64,000 nt of DNA from Escherichia coli (GTDB lineage: Bacteria; Pseudomonadota; Gammaproteobacteria; Enterobacterales; Enterobacteriaceae), in assembly GCF_051903065.1 (NCBI RefSeq), contig NZ_CP178439.1, one strand, 5' to 3'. This document shows, in pieces, positions 36,701 through 48,700 of this stretch; the first letter of the stretch is position 1, and each line of letters opens with the position of its first letter. A program made the position numbers.

Positions 36701-39700
36701 GACCGTCGTCGATTAGTACCGGTACGGTCGGTGGTATCGAAGTCTTGATCACCACTCAGGTCTACGGCTTACAAATGGTGACCATCCCGATACTTGCGTC
36801 AGAGCACCGGGCCGATTCTTTGACAGTGAATCACTCCCGTAAGGTTGTGCCGGTGTGGGTGTCCCGGGTCGAGACGATACTCCGCCAATGCGCCCAGCAA
36901 ACAACCTGGCCATCGCAGGTGGTGGGGAGCGGTGTGGCGGATGAGTTGGACAAGTTGGTGTAGCAGCACGAGCACGGCGAGATAACATCGCAGGAGTTCG
37001 ACATGCTCAAGAGACAGCTGATTGCGAATCGCGATGCAGATTCATAACCCGATTGCGGGTTGGCTTCACTCCACCATCACCGAGCAGACTAGCACGGCGG
37101 GCTCTGTTGCAAAGATTGGCGGCAGTCAGAGGTAGGCTGTCGCTCTGCGCCGATCAGGCGGCTGCTGCGAAATGGTGGTTGAGCATGCCCATGGCCTCCG
37201 TCAGCGCCGAGGGCCCAATGCCAAAAGCTCTCTCCACAAGGCGCACCTCGCCCCTGATGCCGGGCTGCAGGCACCAGGGGCGAGCCTGTCCTTTGCGCAG
37301 GGCTCGCATGACTTCGAATCCCTTGATCGTGGCATAGGCCGTGGGGATCGATTTGAAACCGCGCACCGGCTTGATCAGTATCTTGAGCTTTCCGTGATCG
37401 GCCTCGATCACGTTATTGAGGGCACTGTTGCAAATAGTCGGTGGTGATAAACTTATCATCCCCTTTTGCTGATGGAGCTGCACATGAACCCATTCAAAGG
37501 CCGGCATTTTCAGCGTGACATCATTCTGTGGGCCGTACGCTGGTACTGCAAATACGGCATCAGTTACCGTGAGCTGCAGGAGATGCTGGCTGAACGCGGA
37601 GTGAATGTCGATCACTCCACGATTTACCGCTGGGTTCAGCGTTATGCGCCTGAAATGGAAAAACGGCTGCGCTGGTACTGGCGTAACCCTTCCGATCTTT
37701 GCCCGTGGCACATGGATGAAACCTACGTGAAGGTCAATGGCCGCTGGGCGTATCTGTACCGGGCCGTCGACAGCCGGGGCCGCACTGTCGATTTTTATCT
37801 CTCCTCCCGTCGTAACAGCAAAGCTGCATACCGGTTTCTGGGTAAAATCCTCAACAACGTGAAGAAGTGGCAGATCCCGCGATTCATCAACACGGATAAA
37901 GCGCCCGCCTATGGTCGCGCGCTTGCTCTGCTCAAACGCGAAGGCCGGTGCCCGTCTGACGTTGAACACCGACAGATTAAGTACCGGAACAACGTGATTG
38001 AATGCGATCATGGCAAACTGAAACGGATAATCGGCGCCACGCTGGGATTTAAATCCATGAAGACGGCTTACGCCACCATCAAAGGTATTGAGGTGATGCG
38101 TGCACTACGCAAAGGCCAGGCCTCAGCATTTTATTATGGTGATCCCCTGGGCGAAATGCGCCTGGTAAGCAGAGTTTTTGAAATGTAAGGCCTTTGAATA
38201 AGGAGAGCATGAAAAACCTCGGGGCAGCCATCGAATGATGCCATCTACAGGGGTTAAAATAACCACCATCATTTCATAACAATACCTGCTGACTATGAAG
38301 ATCTACGTCATCAAAATAGCAGTTCATGGAGTCAGTCCGATGGTCTGGCGTCGGCTGAGAATTGCTGCCGACACGTCACTGGCCGCGCTTCACTTCATTT
38401 TCCAGATAGTGCAGGGCTGGGGGGACGACCATCTCCATCAATTTCACATTTATGGCAAAGATTACGGTATCTCCTACGAAGGAGGCATCGGTTTTGTCGA
38501 TAATCCGTTCCGGGTCGTGATTGATGATTTTGCTTTTGATGCTGGCGATCGCTTTACCTATGAATACAATTTCTGGCACTGTTGCAAAGTTAGCGATGAG
38601 GCAGCCTTTTGTCTTATTCAAAGGCCTTACATTTCAAAAACTCTGCTTACCAGGCGCATTTCGCCCAGGGGATCACCATAATAAAATGCTGAGGCCTGGC
38701 CTTTGCGTAGTGCACGCATCACCTCAATACCTTTGATGGTGGCGTAAGCCGTCTTCATGGATTTAAATCCCAGCGTGGCGCCGATTATCCGTTTCAGTTT
38801 GCCATGATCGCATTCAATCACGTTGTTCCGGTACTTAATCTGTCGGTGTTCAACGTCAGACGGGCACCGGCCTTCGCGTTTGAGCAGAGCAAGCGCGCGA
38901 CCATAGGCGGGCGCTTTATCCGTGTTGATGAATCGCGGGATCTGCCACTTCTTCACGTTGTTGAGGATTTTACCCAGAAACCGGTATGCAGCTTTGCTGT
39001 TACGACGGGAGGAGAGATAAAAATCGACAGTGCGGCCCCGGCTGTCGACGGCCCGGTACAGATACGCCCAGCGGCCATTGACCTTCACGTAGGTTTCATC
39101 CATGTGCCACGGGCAAAGATCGGAAGGGTTACGCCAGTACCAGCGCAGCCGTTTTTCCATTTCAGGCGCATAACGCTGAACCCAGCGGTAAATCGTGGAG
39201 TGATCGACATTCACTCCGCGTTCAGCCAGCATCTCCTGCAGCTCACGGTAACTGATGCCGTATTTGCAGTACCAGCGTACGGCCCACAGAATGATGTCAC
39301 GCTGAAAATGCCGGCCTTTGAATGGGTTCATGTGCAGCTCCATCAGCAAAAGGGGATGATAAGTTTATCACCACCGACTATTTGCAACAGTGCCCGTCGG
39401 CTTGAGATGCACATGTTGGCTGAGGTCGCCGGGTAGCGTGAACAGGCGCGGACCGTCCCGAAACTGGAACACGCGATACAGATGGAATTGATCGCCCGCC
39501 TCCTTGGAGAATTCGAGTTCGTTGTGGCTGACCAAGAAAGACGAGCCTACCCCGCCATTGGTGGTTTTCACCTCGATGAAGCGCTCATGGGCGTCCTCTT
39601 CGAACGACAGGATGTCGAACCCCGCACCGTCTCCCTGGGTGTCGGACACCCAATCCAGCCGCTGAAAAAGCTCTGGGTGGCCGAGCTCGGTCAGGCGTTG

Positions 39701-45700: not shown

Positions 45701-48700
45701 CCGGGAAGTCTTTTTCCGTTGGTGCGCCTGCTGACACCCGCCGCTTCGGTTTTGTTCAGAAGGATGACTGTCATCCGGAACGCAGGCTCATGACCCACCT
45801 TTCAGCGCAGGGAATGCAGGCCAACCAGCAGATATTTTTTCTGTCCGACGGCGCGGATAATCTCAGGGACCTCCAGTTCGGTATGTACCCTGAGTCAACG
45901 CATGTGCTGGACTGGTTTCATATCACCATGAGGCTGAAGGTGCTCATGCAATATGCCCGGGGACTGCTGGTATCAGATCCAGAGGCGGGGAGTAAAGTTC
46001 TGGCACTGCTGGAAAGCATTAAACGATATCTCTGGCATGGCAATGTTGTCGCTGCGCTGGAACATATTGATAATTGCGTTATGTATTGCGATGACCCTGA
46101 ACTCAGCTATCCTAGCCTGAAATCCCTGCAAAAACATCTGGATGAAATGTATACCTACATCCGGAATAATAAGATGATGATCCCAAACTACGGCGAAATG
46201 CGTCGGTACGGAGAGCCGGTATCAACCGCGTTTGTGGAATCCACGATCAATGAAGTGATCGCCAGACGAATGGCCAAAAAGCAGCAGATGCAGTGGAGCA
46301 GAAAAGGGGCTCATTATTTGTTACAGACCCGGACCGCCGTTTTGAATAACGAACTGCAGGATAAATTTGTCTGCTGGTATCCGGGTTTTCAAAGTGACGG
46401 GAAGGGACCAGCGATGGCAGCATAGCTCACGCTGCCCCAATATTTTTTATGCTCTCGGTCGTATGGAAGCTGGACCGCCTCGGTCGTGATCTTCGTCATC
46501 TCATTAATACAGTGCACGACCTGACCGCGAGGGGGACCGGTCTGAAAGTGCTGACCGGTCACGGGGCGACTATCGACACAACAACGGCCGCTGGCAAGCT
46601 TGTCTTCGGTATCTTTGCCGCACTGGCGGAGTTTGAGCGCGAACTGATTGCTGAAAGAACGACTGCAGGTCTGGCATCAGCAAGAGCCCGTGGGCGGAAC
46701 GGCGGCCGACCTTATAAAATGACGCCAGTCAAACTGCGACTGGCAATGGCATCAATGGGACAATCAGAAACAAAGGTCAGTACGCTATGCCAGGAACTTG
46801 GGATAACCCGGCAAACTTTGTACAGGCATATTTCCCCTGTTGGTCAACTGCGGGCGGACGGGATCAAGCTGCTCAACCGTGGATAATTTGAACGGACGGA
46901 AAAATCTGGGGTTCCGGCGTAGTACCCCTATCACCTCCACATTTTTGCAACAGTGCCTTATAAATGGCAGCCTTATGTTTACTTGCCAAGATGGGCTACC
47001 ATATGATGTTTTATACTGAGCAATATTAATATTATCTTTAATGGAAAAATTAAGCCCACTAAGTGACCCACTGCTATATGGCTCTATTGTGAAGACGCCT
47101 GAGGGTAAAAATTTATACATGGTTGTCCCTATGTCTATTATTGCAAGGTTGACAATATTATTCGTTTTATAAATTTGAGCGTTTAAAATCACACATCAAA
47201 GCAATTAGTCAGGATAAACAACAATACCCAGTGCTTCGAGAATCAGTTCTTGCTGCCAGGCTGCAATTTTGATACCTGATGTATCGACTTTGCGGGGATC
47301 TAAACCGTCGAGTTCGGCGTGGCATAAATTGGCACCCTGTAGGCTAAATTGCCCCCAGACATCTTCGGAAAAAACACCTCGACTTAAGTCTGACTCTTTC
47401 AGTGATGCACCCGCTAGGTTCGTTCCTATCCAGCGATTTTCAAACAACTCACATTTTTCTAAACAAACCCTCTCCATATTGGCATAGGAAAGATTACATC
47501 CAGAAATAAATGCTGAGCAAAAGTACATACGATTACTCACTTGATGGGCAAAGTTTGTTCGGGAAAAGTTGGCACCTTTTAAATCACACGCACGGAACTC
47601 TATACCGTAGCAATTGGCATTACTGAAGTTTGCCATCGCAAGTTGGCATTGTTGGAAACTTGCATCACGAAGATCTGCGACATCAAAGTGGCAGCCTTCG
47701 ATATCACCCTGTTCAATGAACTTGCAGTTGACGAATGTCGTATCACGCAAGTTAGCACGTCGAAAGTCGCTGCGAATGAATGTGCAAGCGGTGAAGGTGA
47801 GATCACTTAAGTCTTTATGTGAAAAGTTGTGGTGCCGATATGTATGATTGTAGGTTTCCATGAGTACTCCTTGTTGAAAGGAGGGCTAGACTACCATTAT
47901 ACATATGCCAAGACATTAAAATAAAAGCCTGTTACATCAACACATTACAACCCCTCAATTTACCTGTTTTAAGTGGTCAAATTGGCGCGTAGAGCGCCTA
48001 TCGCTCTTGCATTGGCACGCGGCCCTGTTGAAAAAAGTTATTCGCTTTAGATAGGGTTAGGAGAGCCGTGCTTCGCCGGTAAAAAATCGGACTATCCGAC
48101 GCAGGGCGGACTCATCGGCGGAGAAGCAAACTTTGACTATATCTCCCTACACTTGGAAGAGGGCTAGACTGGCCCCATAGATCACCAGACACTTCGACTC
48201 TCTTAAAATAAGAGGTAGTCTTGGAACTATGTTTAATACCAGTCAGAACGATAAGATGGTTGAAGTGTTATCAGGACCTGAGCGGCGTCGGCGTCGTACA
48301 CCGCAGGAAAAAATTGCCATTATTCAGCAGACTATGGAGCCCGGTATGACCGTGTCTCATGTCGCGCGCCTGCATGGCATCAATGCAAACCAGATATTCA
48401 AATGGCGCAAGCAATATTAAGACGGTTCACTGACGGCTGTTGCATCGGGCGAGGAAGTGGTGCCGGCCTCCGAACTCGCTGCCGCCAATAAGCAAATTCG
48501 CGAACTCCAGCGCCTTCTGGGCAAAAAGACGATGGAAGCCGAGATACTCAAAGAGGCCGTGGAGTTCGGCCGGGCAAAAAAATGGATTGCGCATGCGCCC
48601 TCGTTGCCTGGGAACGACGAATAAGCGACGTTTGCAGAAGTCTTGGCGTGTCGCGTGCGCAGTTGAGCATTCGGGTTCACCGGCCATCTGACTGACAGGA

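What the first reader, a model, noticed from the sequence alone, without database searches (positions are those of the whole stretch)
38203..46456. IS26 composite transposon carrying aac(3)-II inserted into a passenger gene of an ISKra4-family element, with intact 8-bp duplication
The same 8-mer CAATTTCT flanks IS26 copy 3 on the left (38567-38574) and copy 4 on the right (43970-43977). Removing 38575-43977 restores a continuous ORF-3-like reading frame and gives an element of exactly 2851 bp bounded by 22-bp imperfect IRs. This is direct evidence of a single transposition event of the 5.4 kb IS26-aac(3)-II-tmrB-tRNA unit.
Basis: seen in the sequence. Interest (0 to 1): 0.5.

Follow-up and report, generated by a model that had tools for sequence, protein, structure and literature searches.

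The report
IS26 resistance module inside ISKpn19
A well-known gentamicin-resistance gene block bounded by two IS26 copies has landed inside another known mobile element (ISKpn19) on an IncHI2-type resistance plasmid; the footprint is real and clean, but it is an ordinary plasmid rearrangement, not a new kind of element.

Summary
Two 820-bp IS26 copies in direct orientation (38575-39394, 43150-43969) enclose a 3,755-bp aac(3)-IId/tmrB-like segment. The 8-mer CAATTTCT flanks the pair. Removing 38575-43977 gives a 2,851-bp sequence that is 100% identical, in one piece, to annotated ISKpn19 in many plasmids, and it restores a full pRiA4b-ORF3 reading frame.

The "single transposition event" reading is too simple. 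IS26 only makes cointegrates. The two copies differ: the right one encodes Tnp26 G184N. Sister IncHI2 plasmids such as pESA136_1 carry the same module 17 kb downstream, between blaLAP-2 and aadA22. Moving and inverting it in silico reproduces window 33048-64000 with 6 SNPs and no indels. So this is a relocation inside a known multiresistance region, needing an IS26 copy-in attack plus at least one recombination step.

This exact junction was not found in PLSDB, in 5,426 complete E. coli genomes, or in the metagenome collection. Every component is already known, so interest is low.

One side observation: the module's "tRNA" is a tRNA-Leu(UAA) gene split by a 213-nt group-I-like intron. That stretch is present but unannotated in 645 of 5,426 E. 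coli genomes.

The parts
37421..38202 (+). Truncated IS26 (first 782 bp; the last 38 bp, including the IR, are missing) that abuts the left IR of ISKpn19
   Evidence: identical to IS26 up to offset 782; this deltaIS26|ISKpn19 junction is shared by about 400 PLSDB records.
38203..38574 (+). ISKpn19 left part: left IR at 38203-38224, and the 5' part of the pRiA4b-ORF3-like gene (annotated start 38340)
38567..38574 (.). Target-site duplication copy 1, CAATTTCT (ISKpn19 nt 365-372)
38575..39394 (-). IS26, standard sequence (tnp26 at 38627-39331)
   Evidence: NCBIfam transpos_IS6 275.6 bits against a cut-off of 125.
39368..40495 (-). DUF3883 / NOV_C-domain gene whose 3' end is cut by IS26 (the stop codon lies inside the IS)
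   Evidence: Pfam NOV_C E = 1.5e-21. Annotated as WP_014837927.1 in relatives.
41078..41376 (+). tRNA-Leu(UAA) gene split by a 213-nt group-I-like intron (5' exon 41078-41112, intron 41113-41325, 3' exon 41326-41376)
   Evidence: Rfam RF00028 36.8 bits (below the gathering score of 50), E = 1.3e-6, full model length. After removing the intron, ARAGORN calls an 86-nt tRNA-Leu(taa). Default ARAGORN finds none.
41470..42012 (-). tmrB-like P-loop ATPase gene
   Evidence: Pfam AAA_33 / AAA_18. Annotated as 'AAA family ATPase' or 'tunicamycin resistance protein' in relatives.
42025..42885 (-). aac(3)-IId aminoglycoside acetyltransferase gene
   Evidence: Pfam Antibiotic_NAT E = 1.8e-62. NCBIfam AAC_3_II 541.4 bits against 480. 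The segment is identical (apart from 40264) to copies called aac(3)-IId at 100%.
42921..43149 (-). IS10 outer-end remnant (229 bp) cut by IS26. It contains RNA-OUT at 42966-43035, pointing toward aac(3)-IId.
   Evidence: Rfam RF00240 98.8 bits against 41. Sequence read.
43150..43969 (-). IS26 variant encoding Tnp26 G184N (TT at IS positions 207-208; tnp26 at 43202-43906)
43970..43977 (.). Target-site duplication copy 2, CAATTTCT
43978..46456 (+). ISKpn19 right part: 3' part of the ORF3-like gene (to 44288), serine recombinase gene 44425-44997, ISKra4-family transposase gene 45031-46425, right IR 46435-46456
61249..62068 (+). Single standard IS26 between blaLAP-2 and aadA22. This is the place where sister plasmids carry the aac(3)-IId module (the 'old site').

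Best explanation
A 5,395-bp IS26-bounded pseudo-compound transposon interrupts the pRiA4b-ORF3-like passenger gene of an otherwise intact ISKpn19, after nt 372 of the element. Its order is: standard IS26, truncated DUF3883 gene, intron-split tRNA-Leu, tmrB-like gene, aac(3)-IId, IS10 remnant, IS26 G184N. It is flanked by the 8-bp duplication CAATTTCT.

It is a relocated and inverted copy of a module that sister IncHI2 plasmids carry 17 kb downstream, between blaLAP-2 and aadA22. Only a single IS26 remains at that place here.

The most likely mechanism has two parts.
1. The standard IS26 copy on the DUF3883 side made a copy-in (replicative) attack on CAATTTCT in ISKpn19. This created the duplication and a new IS26 copy.
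2. At least one recombination step involving the G184N copy then gave the present order. This was either re-inversion of the 17-kb stretch between inverted IS26 copies after an intramolecular inversion, or resolution of a cointegrate between two plasmid copies.

Shown: the anatomy, the duplication, the identity of all parts, and the relocation relative to sister plasmids. Inferred: the order and type of the IS26 events.

The ISKpn19 passenger gene is inactivated. The ISKpn19 IRs, recombinase gene and transposase gene are untouched.
For: - Base-exact IS26 ends and 8-bp flanks.
- The excised sequence equals ISKpn19 at 100% over 2,851 bp, and the restored ORF covers the full PRiA4_ORF3 profile.
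- Family cut-offs are passed for Tnp26, the ISKra4 transposase and AAC(3)-II.
- Sister plasmids have ISKpn19 intact in the same deltaIS26 / deltatnpR-qnrS1 context, with IS26(G184N)-aac(3)-IId-...-IS26 downstream of blaLAP-2. These are pCFSA1096, pPJ-T7-250kb, pESA136_1 and p16-6773.1.
- Moving and inverting that module in silico in pESA136_1 reproduces window 33048-64000 (30,953 bp) with 6 SNPs and no indel. The same holds for pPJ-T7-250kb.
- The IS26 marker pattern (left copy standard, right copy G184N, old site standard) is the one expected if the standard copy attacked.
- IS26 mechanism: it forms cointegrates only, and pseudo-compound transposons move through cointegrates or translocatable units plus recombination (PMC8722046). 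G184N is a known, more active variant (PMC9019673, citing Pong et al. 2019).
Against: - No intermediate was found. There is no lone IS26 at this site and no inversion isomer in PLSDB, in 5,426 E. coli genomes, or in JGI metagenomes. The path therefore rests on inference.
- In all relatives examined, the G184N copy also carries a silent T at IS position 362. The window copy has C there, and the old-site IS26 lacks T362. Simple reciprocal versions of the intramolecular route and of the translocatable-unit route each leave one marker unexplained. Only the cointegrate-resolution route fits without an extra gene-conversion step, and that route needs a separate loss of the module from the old site.
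- SNPs inside repeated IS copies may also be assembly-polishing errors.
Confidence: 0.6

Rival explanations
1. Two-stage targeted route. A lone IS26 first became fixed at CAATTTCT in ISKpn19, which itself requires a cointegrate and its resolution. Later a translocatable unit (the 3,755-bp segment plus the G184N IS26), excised from the old site, was incorporated next to that IS26 by the Tnp26 targeted conservative reaction. The original duplication stays on the outside.
For: - The targeted conservative reaction is far more efficient than copy-in and is shown to build such structures (PMC8722046).
- It explains why the two IS26 copies differ and why one IS26 remains at the old site.
Against: - It needs more steps.
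- No record with a lone IS26 at this site was found.
- The position-362 marker is still unexplained. Either the unit's IS or the old-site IS should carry T362.
- The inverted orientation is not predicted.
Confidence: 0.22
2. A circular translocatable unit with one IS26 inserted by copy-in at CAATTTCT, duplicating its IS and the 8-bp target in a single event.
For: - Direct 8-bp repeats flank two direct IS26 copies.
- A single IS26 is left at the old site.
- Hall states that translocatable-unit insertion by either mechanism makes a pseudo-compound transposon (PMC8722046).
Against: - Copy-in duplicates one IS, so both copies should be identical. They differ at 207-208, which changes Tnp26 residue 184.
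- The same standard/G184N pairing is already present in the module elsewhere. This reading would need a later gene conversion that restored exactly the ancestral pattern.
Confidence: 0.12
3. Assembly artefact. Repeated IS26 copies caused the aac(3)-IId segment to be placed between the wrong IS26 pair. The true structure would be a lone IS26 in ISKpn19 with the module still at the old site.
For: - There are five IS26 copies within 30 kb.
- The odd TT-only variant could reflect polishing across repeats.
Against: - The IS26/ISKpn19 junctions and the 8-bp duplication are unique sequence and cannot come from repeat collapse.
- At 820 bp, the repeats are easily spanned by long reads.
- The rearranged order is internally consistent to the base.
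Confidence: 0.04

Closest known systems
[quoted passage not shown]
   Same: The whole 5,395-bp unit is 99.9% identical to copies in NZ_CP138765.1, NZ_AP026949.1, NZ_CP039861.1 and many others. This includes the standard-IS26 / G184N-IS26 pairing. The 3,755-bp interior differs by one private SNP, at 40264.
   Different: Here it is flanked by an 8-bp duplication and sits inside ISKpn19. The copies inspected elsewhere have no duplication. The G184N copy lacks the silent T362 seen in the relatives.
ISKpn19 (ISKra4 family), the three-gene IS usually found upstream of qnrS1
   Same: After excision the element is 100% identical over 2,851 bp. It has the same deltaIS26 left flank and deltatnpR-qnrS1 right flank as pK91, pCFSA1096 and pESA136_1.
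   Different: It is interrupted after nt 372, in the ORF3-like passenger gene. No other record with this interruption was found.
The IncHI2 multiresistance region of pESA136_1 / pCFSA1096 / pPJ-T7-250kb (mph(A)...ISKpn19-qnrS1...blaCTX-M-55...blaTEM-1...blaLAP-2-IS26-aac(3)-IId...IS26), described in PMC9396133 and PMC8093823
   Same: Window 33048-64000 is colinear with it, with 6 SNPs, once the module is moved. Window 22000-33047 is IncHI2 backbone at 100% identity.
   Different: The position and orientation of the aac(3)-IId module differ. The junction of the region with the backbone at the IS26 at 33048 also differs.
tRNA-Leu(UAA) group I introns of cyanobacteria and plastids (from my own knowledge: Kuhsel et al. 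and Xu et al., 1990). This applies to the side observation only.
   Same: - The intron sits after U34 of a UAA anticodon.
- The exon end ACUU can pair with intron GAGU, giving a U.G pair at the 5' splice site.
- The intron ends in G.
- The R/S core elements can pair (GACUG / CAGUC).
- The Rfam group I model aligns over its full length.
   Different: - It lies on enterobacterial resistance plasmids, in 58-60% G+C DNA of unknown origin.
- Its score is below Rfam's gathering threshold (36.8 against 50).
- Splicing has not been tested.

Membership tests
IS26 (IS6/IS26 family) | An 820-bp element with 14-bp terminal IRs GGCACTGTTGCAAA | tested here: met
   both copies are 820 bp with perfect IRs.
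IS26 (IS6/IS26 family) | A single DDE transposase, Tnp26, of 234 aa | tested here: met
   NF033587 275.6 bits against a cut-off of 125. The right copy differs only by G184N.
IS26 (IS6/IS26 family) | An 8-bp target-site duplication | tested here: met
   CAATTTCT lies on both outer sides, and excision restores ISKpn19 with one copy of it.
IS26 pseudo-compound transposon | Two directly oriented IS26 copies bounding a passenger segment | tested here: met
IS26 pseudo-compound transposon | Movement through a cointegrate or translocatable unit rather than as a unit by its outer ends | not testable with these tools
   Known from experiments cited in PMC8722046. Here it is only inferred from the non-identical IS copies and from comparison with sister plasmids.
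ISKra4 family / ISKpn19 | An ISKra4-type transposase | tested here: met
   NF033572 380.7 bits against a cut-off of 205.
ISKra4 family / ISKpn19 | Nucleotide identity to the named element | tested here: met
   100% over 2,851 bp to copies that RefSeq annotates as 'ISKra4-like element ISKpn19'. The ISfinder reference itself was not available.
ISKra4 family / ISKpn19 | Terminal inverted repeats | tested here: met
   18 of 22 positions match, or 22 of 26 if extended.
AAC(3)-II aminoglycoside acetyltransferase | Passes the curated subfamily model | tested here: met
   NF033080 541.4 bits against a cut-off of 480.
Group I intron (Rfam RF00028) | Reaches the family's gathering score | tested here: not met
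   36.8 bits against 50, E = 1.3e-6, with the full model length aligned.
Group I intron in tRNA-Leu(UAA) | Removing the intron leaves an intact tRNA; a U.G pair at the 5' splice site; a terminal G | tested here: met
   ARAGORN calls an 86-nt tRNA-Leu(taa) after removal of 41113-41325. The pairings were read from the sequence.
Group I intron in tRNA-Leu(UAA) | Self-splicing | not testable with these tools
   Needs an in vitro splicing assay or RT-PCR.

The most novel reading that the evidence does not exclude
The least ordinary thing inside the coordinates is the module's 'tRNA', not the insertion. The reading would be that an intact, self-splicing group I intron in a tRNA-Leu(UAA) gene travels on a clinical aminoglycoside-resistance module. 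That stretch is present but unannotated in 645 of 5,426 complete E. coli genomes, and the feature has gone unremarked in the resistance literature. A second, weaker possibility is that ISKpn19, whose IRs, recombinase gene and transposase gene are intact, can now move aac(3)-IId as an 8,254-bp hybrid transposon.
Probability: 0.3. Interest if true: 0.45.

Novelty: already known. Interest (0 to 1): 0.15.

Why it matters
It is a clean, datable footprint of IS26 activity. It shows how one resistance module shifts position inside an IncHI2 multiresistance region, and it can serve as a marker for tracing that plasmid lineage.

It adds nothing new about mechanism. All the parts are identical to known sequences, and the process is the textbook behaviour of IS26.

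Practical value lies in two points. An 8-bp duplication around a two-IS26 structure should not be read as one-step 'composite transposition'. SNP markers inside the IS copies can discriminate between the possible routes.

The intron-split tRNA-Leu gene in the module deserves a short separate look.

Tried and rejected
1. **Exact junction elsewhere.** I searched for the ISKpn19/IS26 junction in PLSDB, in 5,426 complete E. coli genomes and in JGI metagenomes (44-mer). No contiguous match was found. The two-piece hits in Salmonella pig plasmids have the IS26 end about 540 bp away, so they are a different insertion.

2. **Near-full-length hits.** The plasmids that covered 99% of the 8,254-bp query (NZ_CP098385.1, NZ_CP068594.1) turned out to have an intact ISKpn19 with the aac(3)-IId module nearby, not inside it.

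3. **The isolated IS26-like IR at 46944-46957.** I considered whether it is the missing end of the truncated IS26 at 37421-38202, which would mean that ISKpn19 plus deltatnpR had inserted into IS26. This was rejected: only 14 bp match, not the missing 38 bp, and the motif is present in all qnrS1 contexts.

4. **A single intramolecular IS26 inversion.** This was rejected because the ISKpn19 3' part and the stretch from qnrS1 to blaLAP-2 are not inverted relative to the 5' part.

5. **A donor-specific SNP in the module.** The only difference, at 40264, is private to the window and so is uninformative.

6. **The native source of the tRNA/intron.** I looked for it through TmrB-like relatives in 100,044 species genomes. 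Paracoccus and Microvirga have aac(3)-tmrB pairs at about 68% nucleotide identity, but without the tRNA.

7. **Literature.** Searches linking a group I intron with tmrB, aacC2 or resistance plasmids found nothing.

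
Full report
**1. Observation**

The window holds four complete IS26 copies of 820 bp: 33048-33867, 38575-39394, 43150-43969 and 61249-62068. There is also one truncated copy, 37421-38202, which is 782 bp. The copies at 38575 and 43150 have the same orientation, with tnp26 on the minus strand.

The 8-mer CAATTTCT lies immediately left of the first copy (38567-38574) and immediately right of the second (43970-43977). It occurs 7 times in the window against 3.25 expected, so its frequency alone says nothing. What matters is that the two specific flanks are identical, which has a chance of about 1 in 65,536.

The decisive test is excision. Joining 38203-38574 to 43978-46456 gives exactly 2,851 bp. 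That sequence matches uninterrupted, annotated ISKpn19 at 100% over its whole length in one piece in many plasmids. In all, 1,777 PLSDB records cover at least 80% of it.

The terminal repeats match at 18 of 22 positions, or 22 of 26 if extended. The restored ORF spans the full Pfam PRiA4_ORF3 profile, E = 8e-32.

**2. What the parts are**

ISKpn19 carries three genes:
- an ORF3-like gene;
- a serine recombinase gene (Pfam Resolvase, E = 1.2e-39);
- a 464-aa transposase gene, which passes NCBIfam transpos_ISKra4 at 380.7 bits against a cut-off of 205.

IS26 entered after nt 372 of the element, which is nt 235 of the 546-nt annotated ORF3-like coding sequence. The ISKpn19 IRs, recombinase gene and transposase gene are untouched.

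Between the two IS26 copies lie 3,755 bp, in this order:
- a DUF3883 / NOV_C gene cut by IS26;
- small ORFs;
- an intron-split tRNA-Leu gene;
- a tmrB-like ATPase gene;
- aac(3)-IId (AAC_3_II, 541 bits against 480);
- a 229-bp IS10 end containing RNA-OUT (98.8 bits).

This whole IS26-segment-IS26 unit is a common module. It is 99.9% identical to copies in IncHI2, IncF and other plasmids. The interior differs from nine compared copies by one private SNP.

**3. Context and history**

The left flank of ISKpn19 (a truncated IS26) and its right flank (a tnpR remnant followed by qnrS1) are the usual ones. About 400 PLSDB records share the left junction. The plasmids pK91, pCFSA1096, pPJ-T7-250kb and pESA136_1 share both flanks, with ISKpn19 intact.

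In those IncHI2 plasmids the order is: mph(A), deltaIS26, ISKpn19, qnrS1, blaCTX-M-55, blaTEM-1, blaLAP-2, IS26(G184N), aac(3)-IId segment, IS26, aadA22. This region is described in PMC9396133 and PMC8093823.

In the window a single standard IS26 (61249-62068) sits between blaLAP-2 and aadA22. The module is inside ISKpn19 in the opposite orientation. Taking pESA136_1 and moving and inverting the module in silico reproduces window 33048-64000 (30,953 bp) with 6 SNPs and no indel. The same holds for pPJ-T7-250kb. Window 22000-33047 is IncHI2 backbone at 100% identity. The finding is therefore a relocation within a known multiresistance region.

**4. Mechanism**

IS26 produces only cointegrates, either by copy-in or by a targeted conservative reaction. 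Structures bounded by direct IS26 copies move through cointegrates or single-IS translocatable units, with homologous recombination completing the move (PMC8722046). The duplication shows one IS26 attack on CAATTTCT. It does not show that 5.4 kb moved in one step.

The IS copies carry markers:
- The left copy is standard.
- The right copy, next to the IS10 remnant, has TT at positions 207-208, which gives Tnp26 G184N. This is the more active variant (PMC9019673, citing Pong et al. 2019).
- The old-site copy is standard.
- The standard/G184N pairing already exists in the module elsewhere. A single duplication of one IS therefore does not explain the pattern.

I compared three routes.

(a) Intramolecular route. 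The standard copy makes a copy-in attack in inversion mode. This gives ISKpn19 5' part, t, IS26, inverted segment, IS26(G184N), inverted B, rc(t), IS26, aadA22, where t is the 8-bp target CAATTTCT, rc(t) is its reverse complement, and B is the stretch from the ISKpn19 3' part to blaLAP-2. B is then re-inverted between the inverted IS26 copies. This takes two steps. It predicts the inverted orientation and the single IS26 left behind.

(b) Cointegrate route. The standard IS26 makes a copy-in cointegrate with a second plasmid copy. Resolution occurs inside the G184N copy, and the module is lost separately from the old site.

(c) Targeted route. A lone IS26 arrives first, and a translocatable unit is then incorporated next to it by the targeted reaction.

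One further marker bears on these. In all relatives inspected, the G184N copy also has a silent T at position 362. The window copy has C there, and the old-site copy has no T362.
- Route (b), with a crossover between positions 209 and 361, fits all markers.
- Routes (a) and (c) each need one extra gene conversion, or a polishing error in the assembly.

I therefore commit only to the part shared by (a) and (b): a copy-in attack by the standard IS26, followed by recombination involving the G184N copy. I give this about 0.6, and I give the anatomy itself more than 0.95. No intermediate was found in PLSDB, in E. coli complete genomes, or in metagenomes.

**5. Comparison and novelty**

Every component is identical or nearly identical to known sequences, and the process is standard IS26 behaviour. 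Only the insertion site is unrecorded in the collections searched. I rate it as already known in kind, with low interest.

**6. Side observation: the split tRNA-Leu gene**

Default ARAGORN finds no tRNA in the module. Rfam aligns the full group I intron model to 41103-41295 at 36.8 bits. This is below the gathering score of 50, with E = 1.3e-6.

Reading the sequence, 41078-41112 and 41326-41376 are the two halves of a tRNA-Leu(UAA). Removing the 213 nt between them gives an 86-nt tRNA-Leu(taa) by ARAGORN. Further features fit a group I intron:
- The break is after U34.
- The exon end ACUU can pair with intron GAGU, giving a U.G pair at the splice site.
- The intron ends in G.
- The core elements can pair (GACUG / CAGUC).

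The stretch occurs in 645 of 5,426 complete E. coli genomes, with no annotated feature under it in the 12 hits listed. I found no paper that mentions it. Relatives of the aac(3)-tmrB pair in Paracoccus and Microvirga lack it, so its source remains unknown. Whether it splices is untested.

Noticed in passing
window 41078-41376 (+): A tRNA-Leu(UAA) gene is interrupted after U34 by a 213-nt group-I-like intron (41113-41325). The Rfam hit is below threshold (36.8 against 50 bits), but the exons rebuild a perfect 86-nt tRNA. The same stretch is in 645 of 5,426 complete E. coli genomes, and none of the 12 listed hits has an annotated feature under it. Its origin is unknown.
   Followed up: partly
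window 42921-43149 (RNA-OUT at 42966-43035, minus strand): A 229-bp IS10 outer-end remnant lies between IS26 and aac(3)-IId. Its RNA-OUT / pOUT points toward the aac(3)-IId start codon (42885), 81 bp away, so pOUT may drive the resistance gene.
   Followed up: no
window 46457; L001 5852; L006 16912: The right end of ISKpn19 abuts three different points of the same tnpR-remnant / qnrS1 stretch in different plasmids (equivalent to window 46457, 46617 and 46926). This looks like nested adjacent deletions starting at the IS end. No target-site duplication was seen around any ISKpn19 copy inspected.
   Followed up: partly
window 43150-43969, compared with L003, L004, L006, L029, L030 and L031: The G184N IS26 in the window has TT at 207-208 but lacks the silent T362 that accompanies it in every relative inspected. 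L004 has the reciprocal type, with T362 only. IS26 copies therefore exchange sequence, or repeats are mis-polished in assemblies.
   Followed up: partly
window 33048 (left flank 33036-33047): The IS26 at 33048 joins IncHI2 backbone (100% identical to pCFSA1096 107797-118844) directly to the mph(A) end of the resistance region. Sister plasmids have cmlA6, arr-2 and dfrA14 there. This is a further IS26-mediated deletion or inversion in the same plasmid.
   Followed up: no
window 46944-46957: An isolated 14-bp IS26-type terminal repeat (TTTGCAACAGTGCC) lies upstream of qnrS1, with no adjoining IS26 sequence. It is conserved in all qnrS1 contexts inspected.
   Followed up: partly
L010 and L013 (Paracoccus), L011 (Microvirga): Chromosomal aac(3)-like plus tmrB-like gene pairs with about 66-68% nucleotide identity to the plasmid pair. 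This hints that the aac(3)-II/tmrB pair comes from an alphaproteobacterial-type genome.
   Followed up: no
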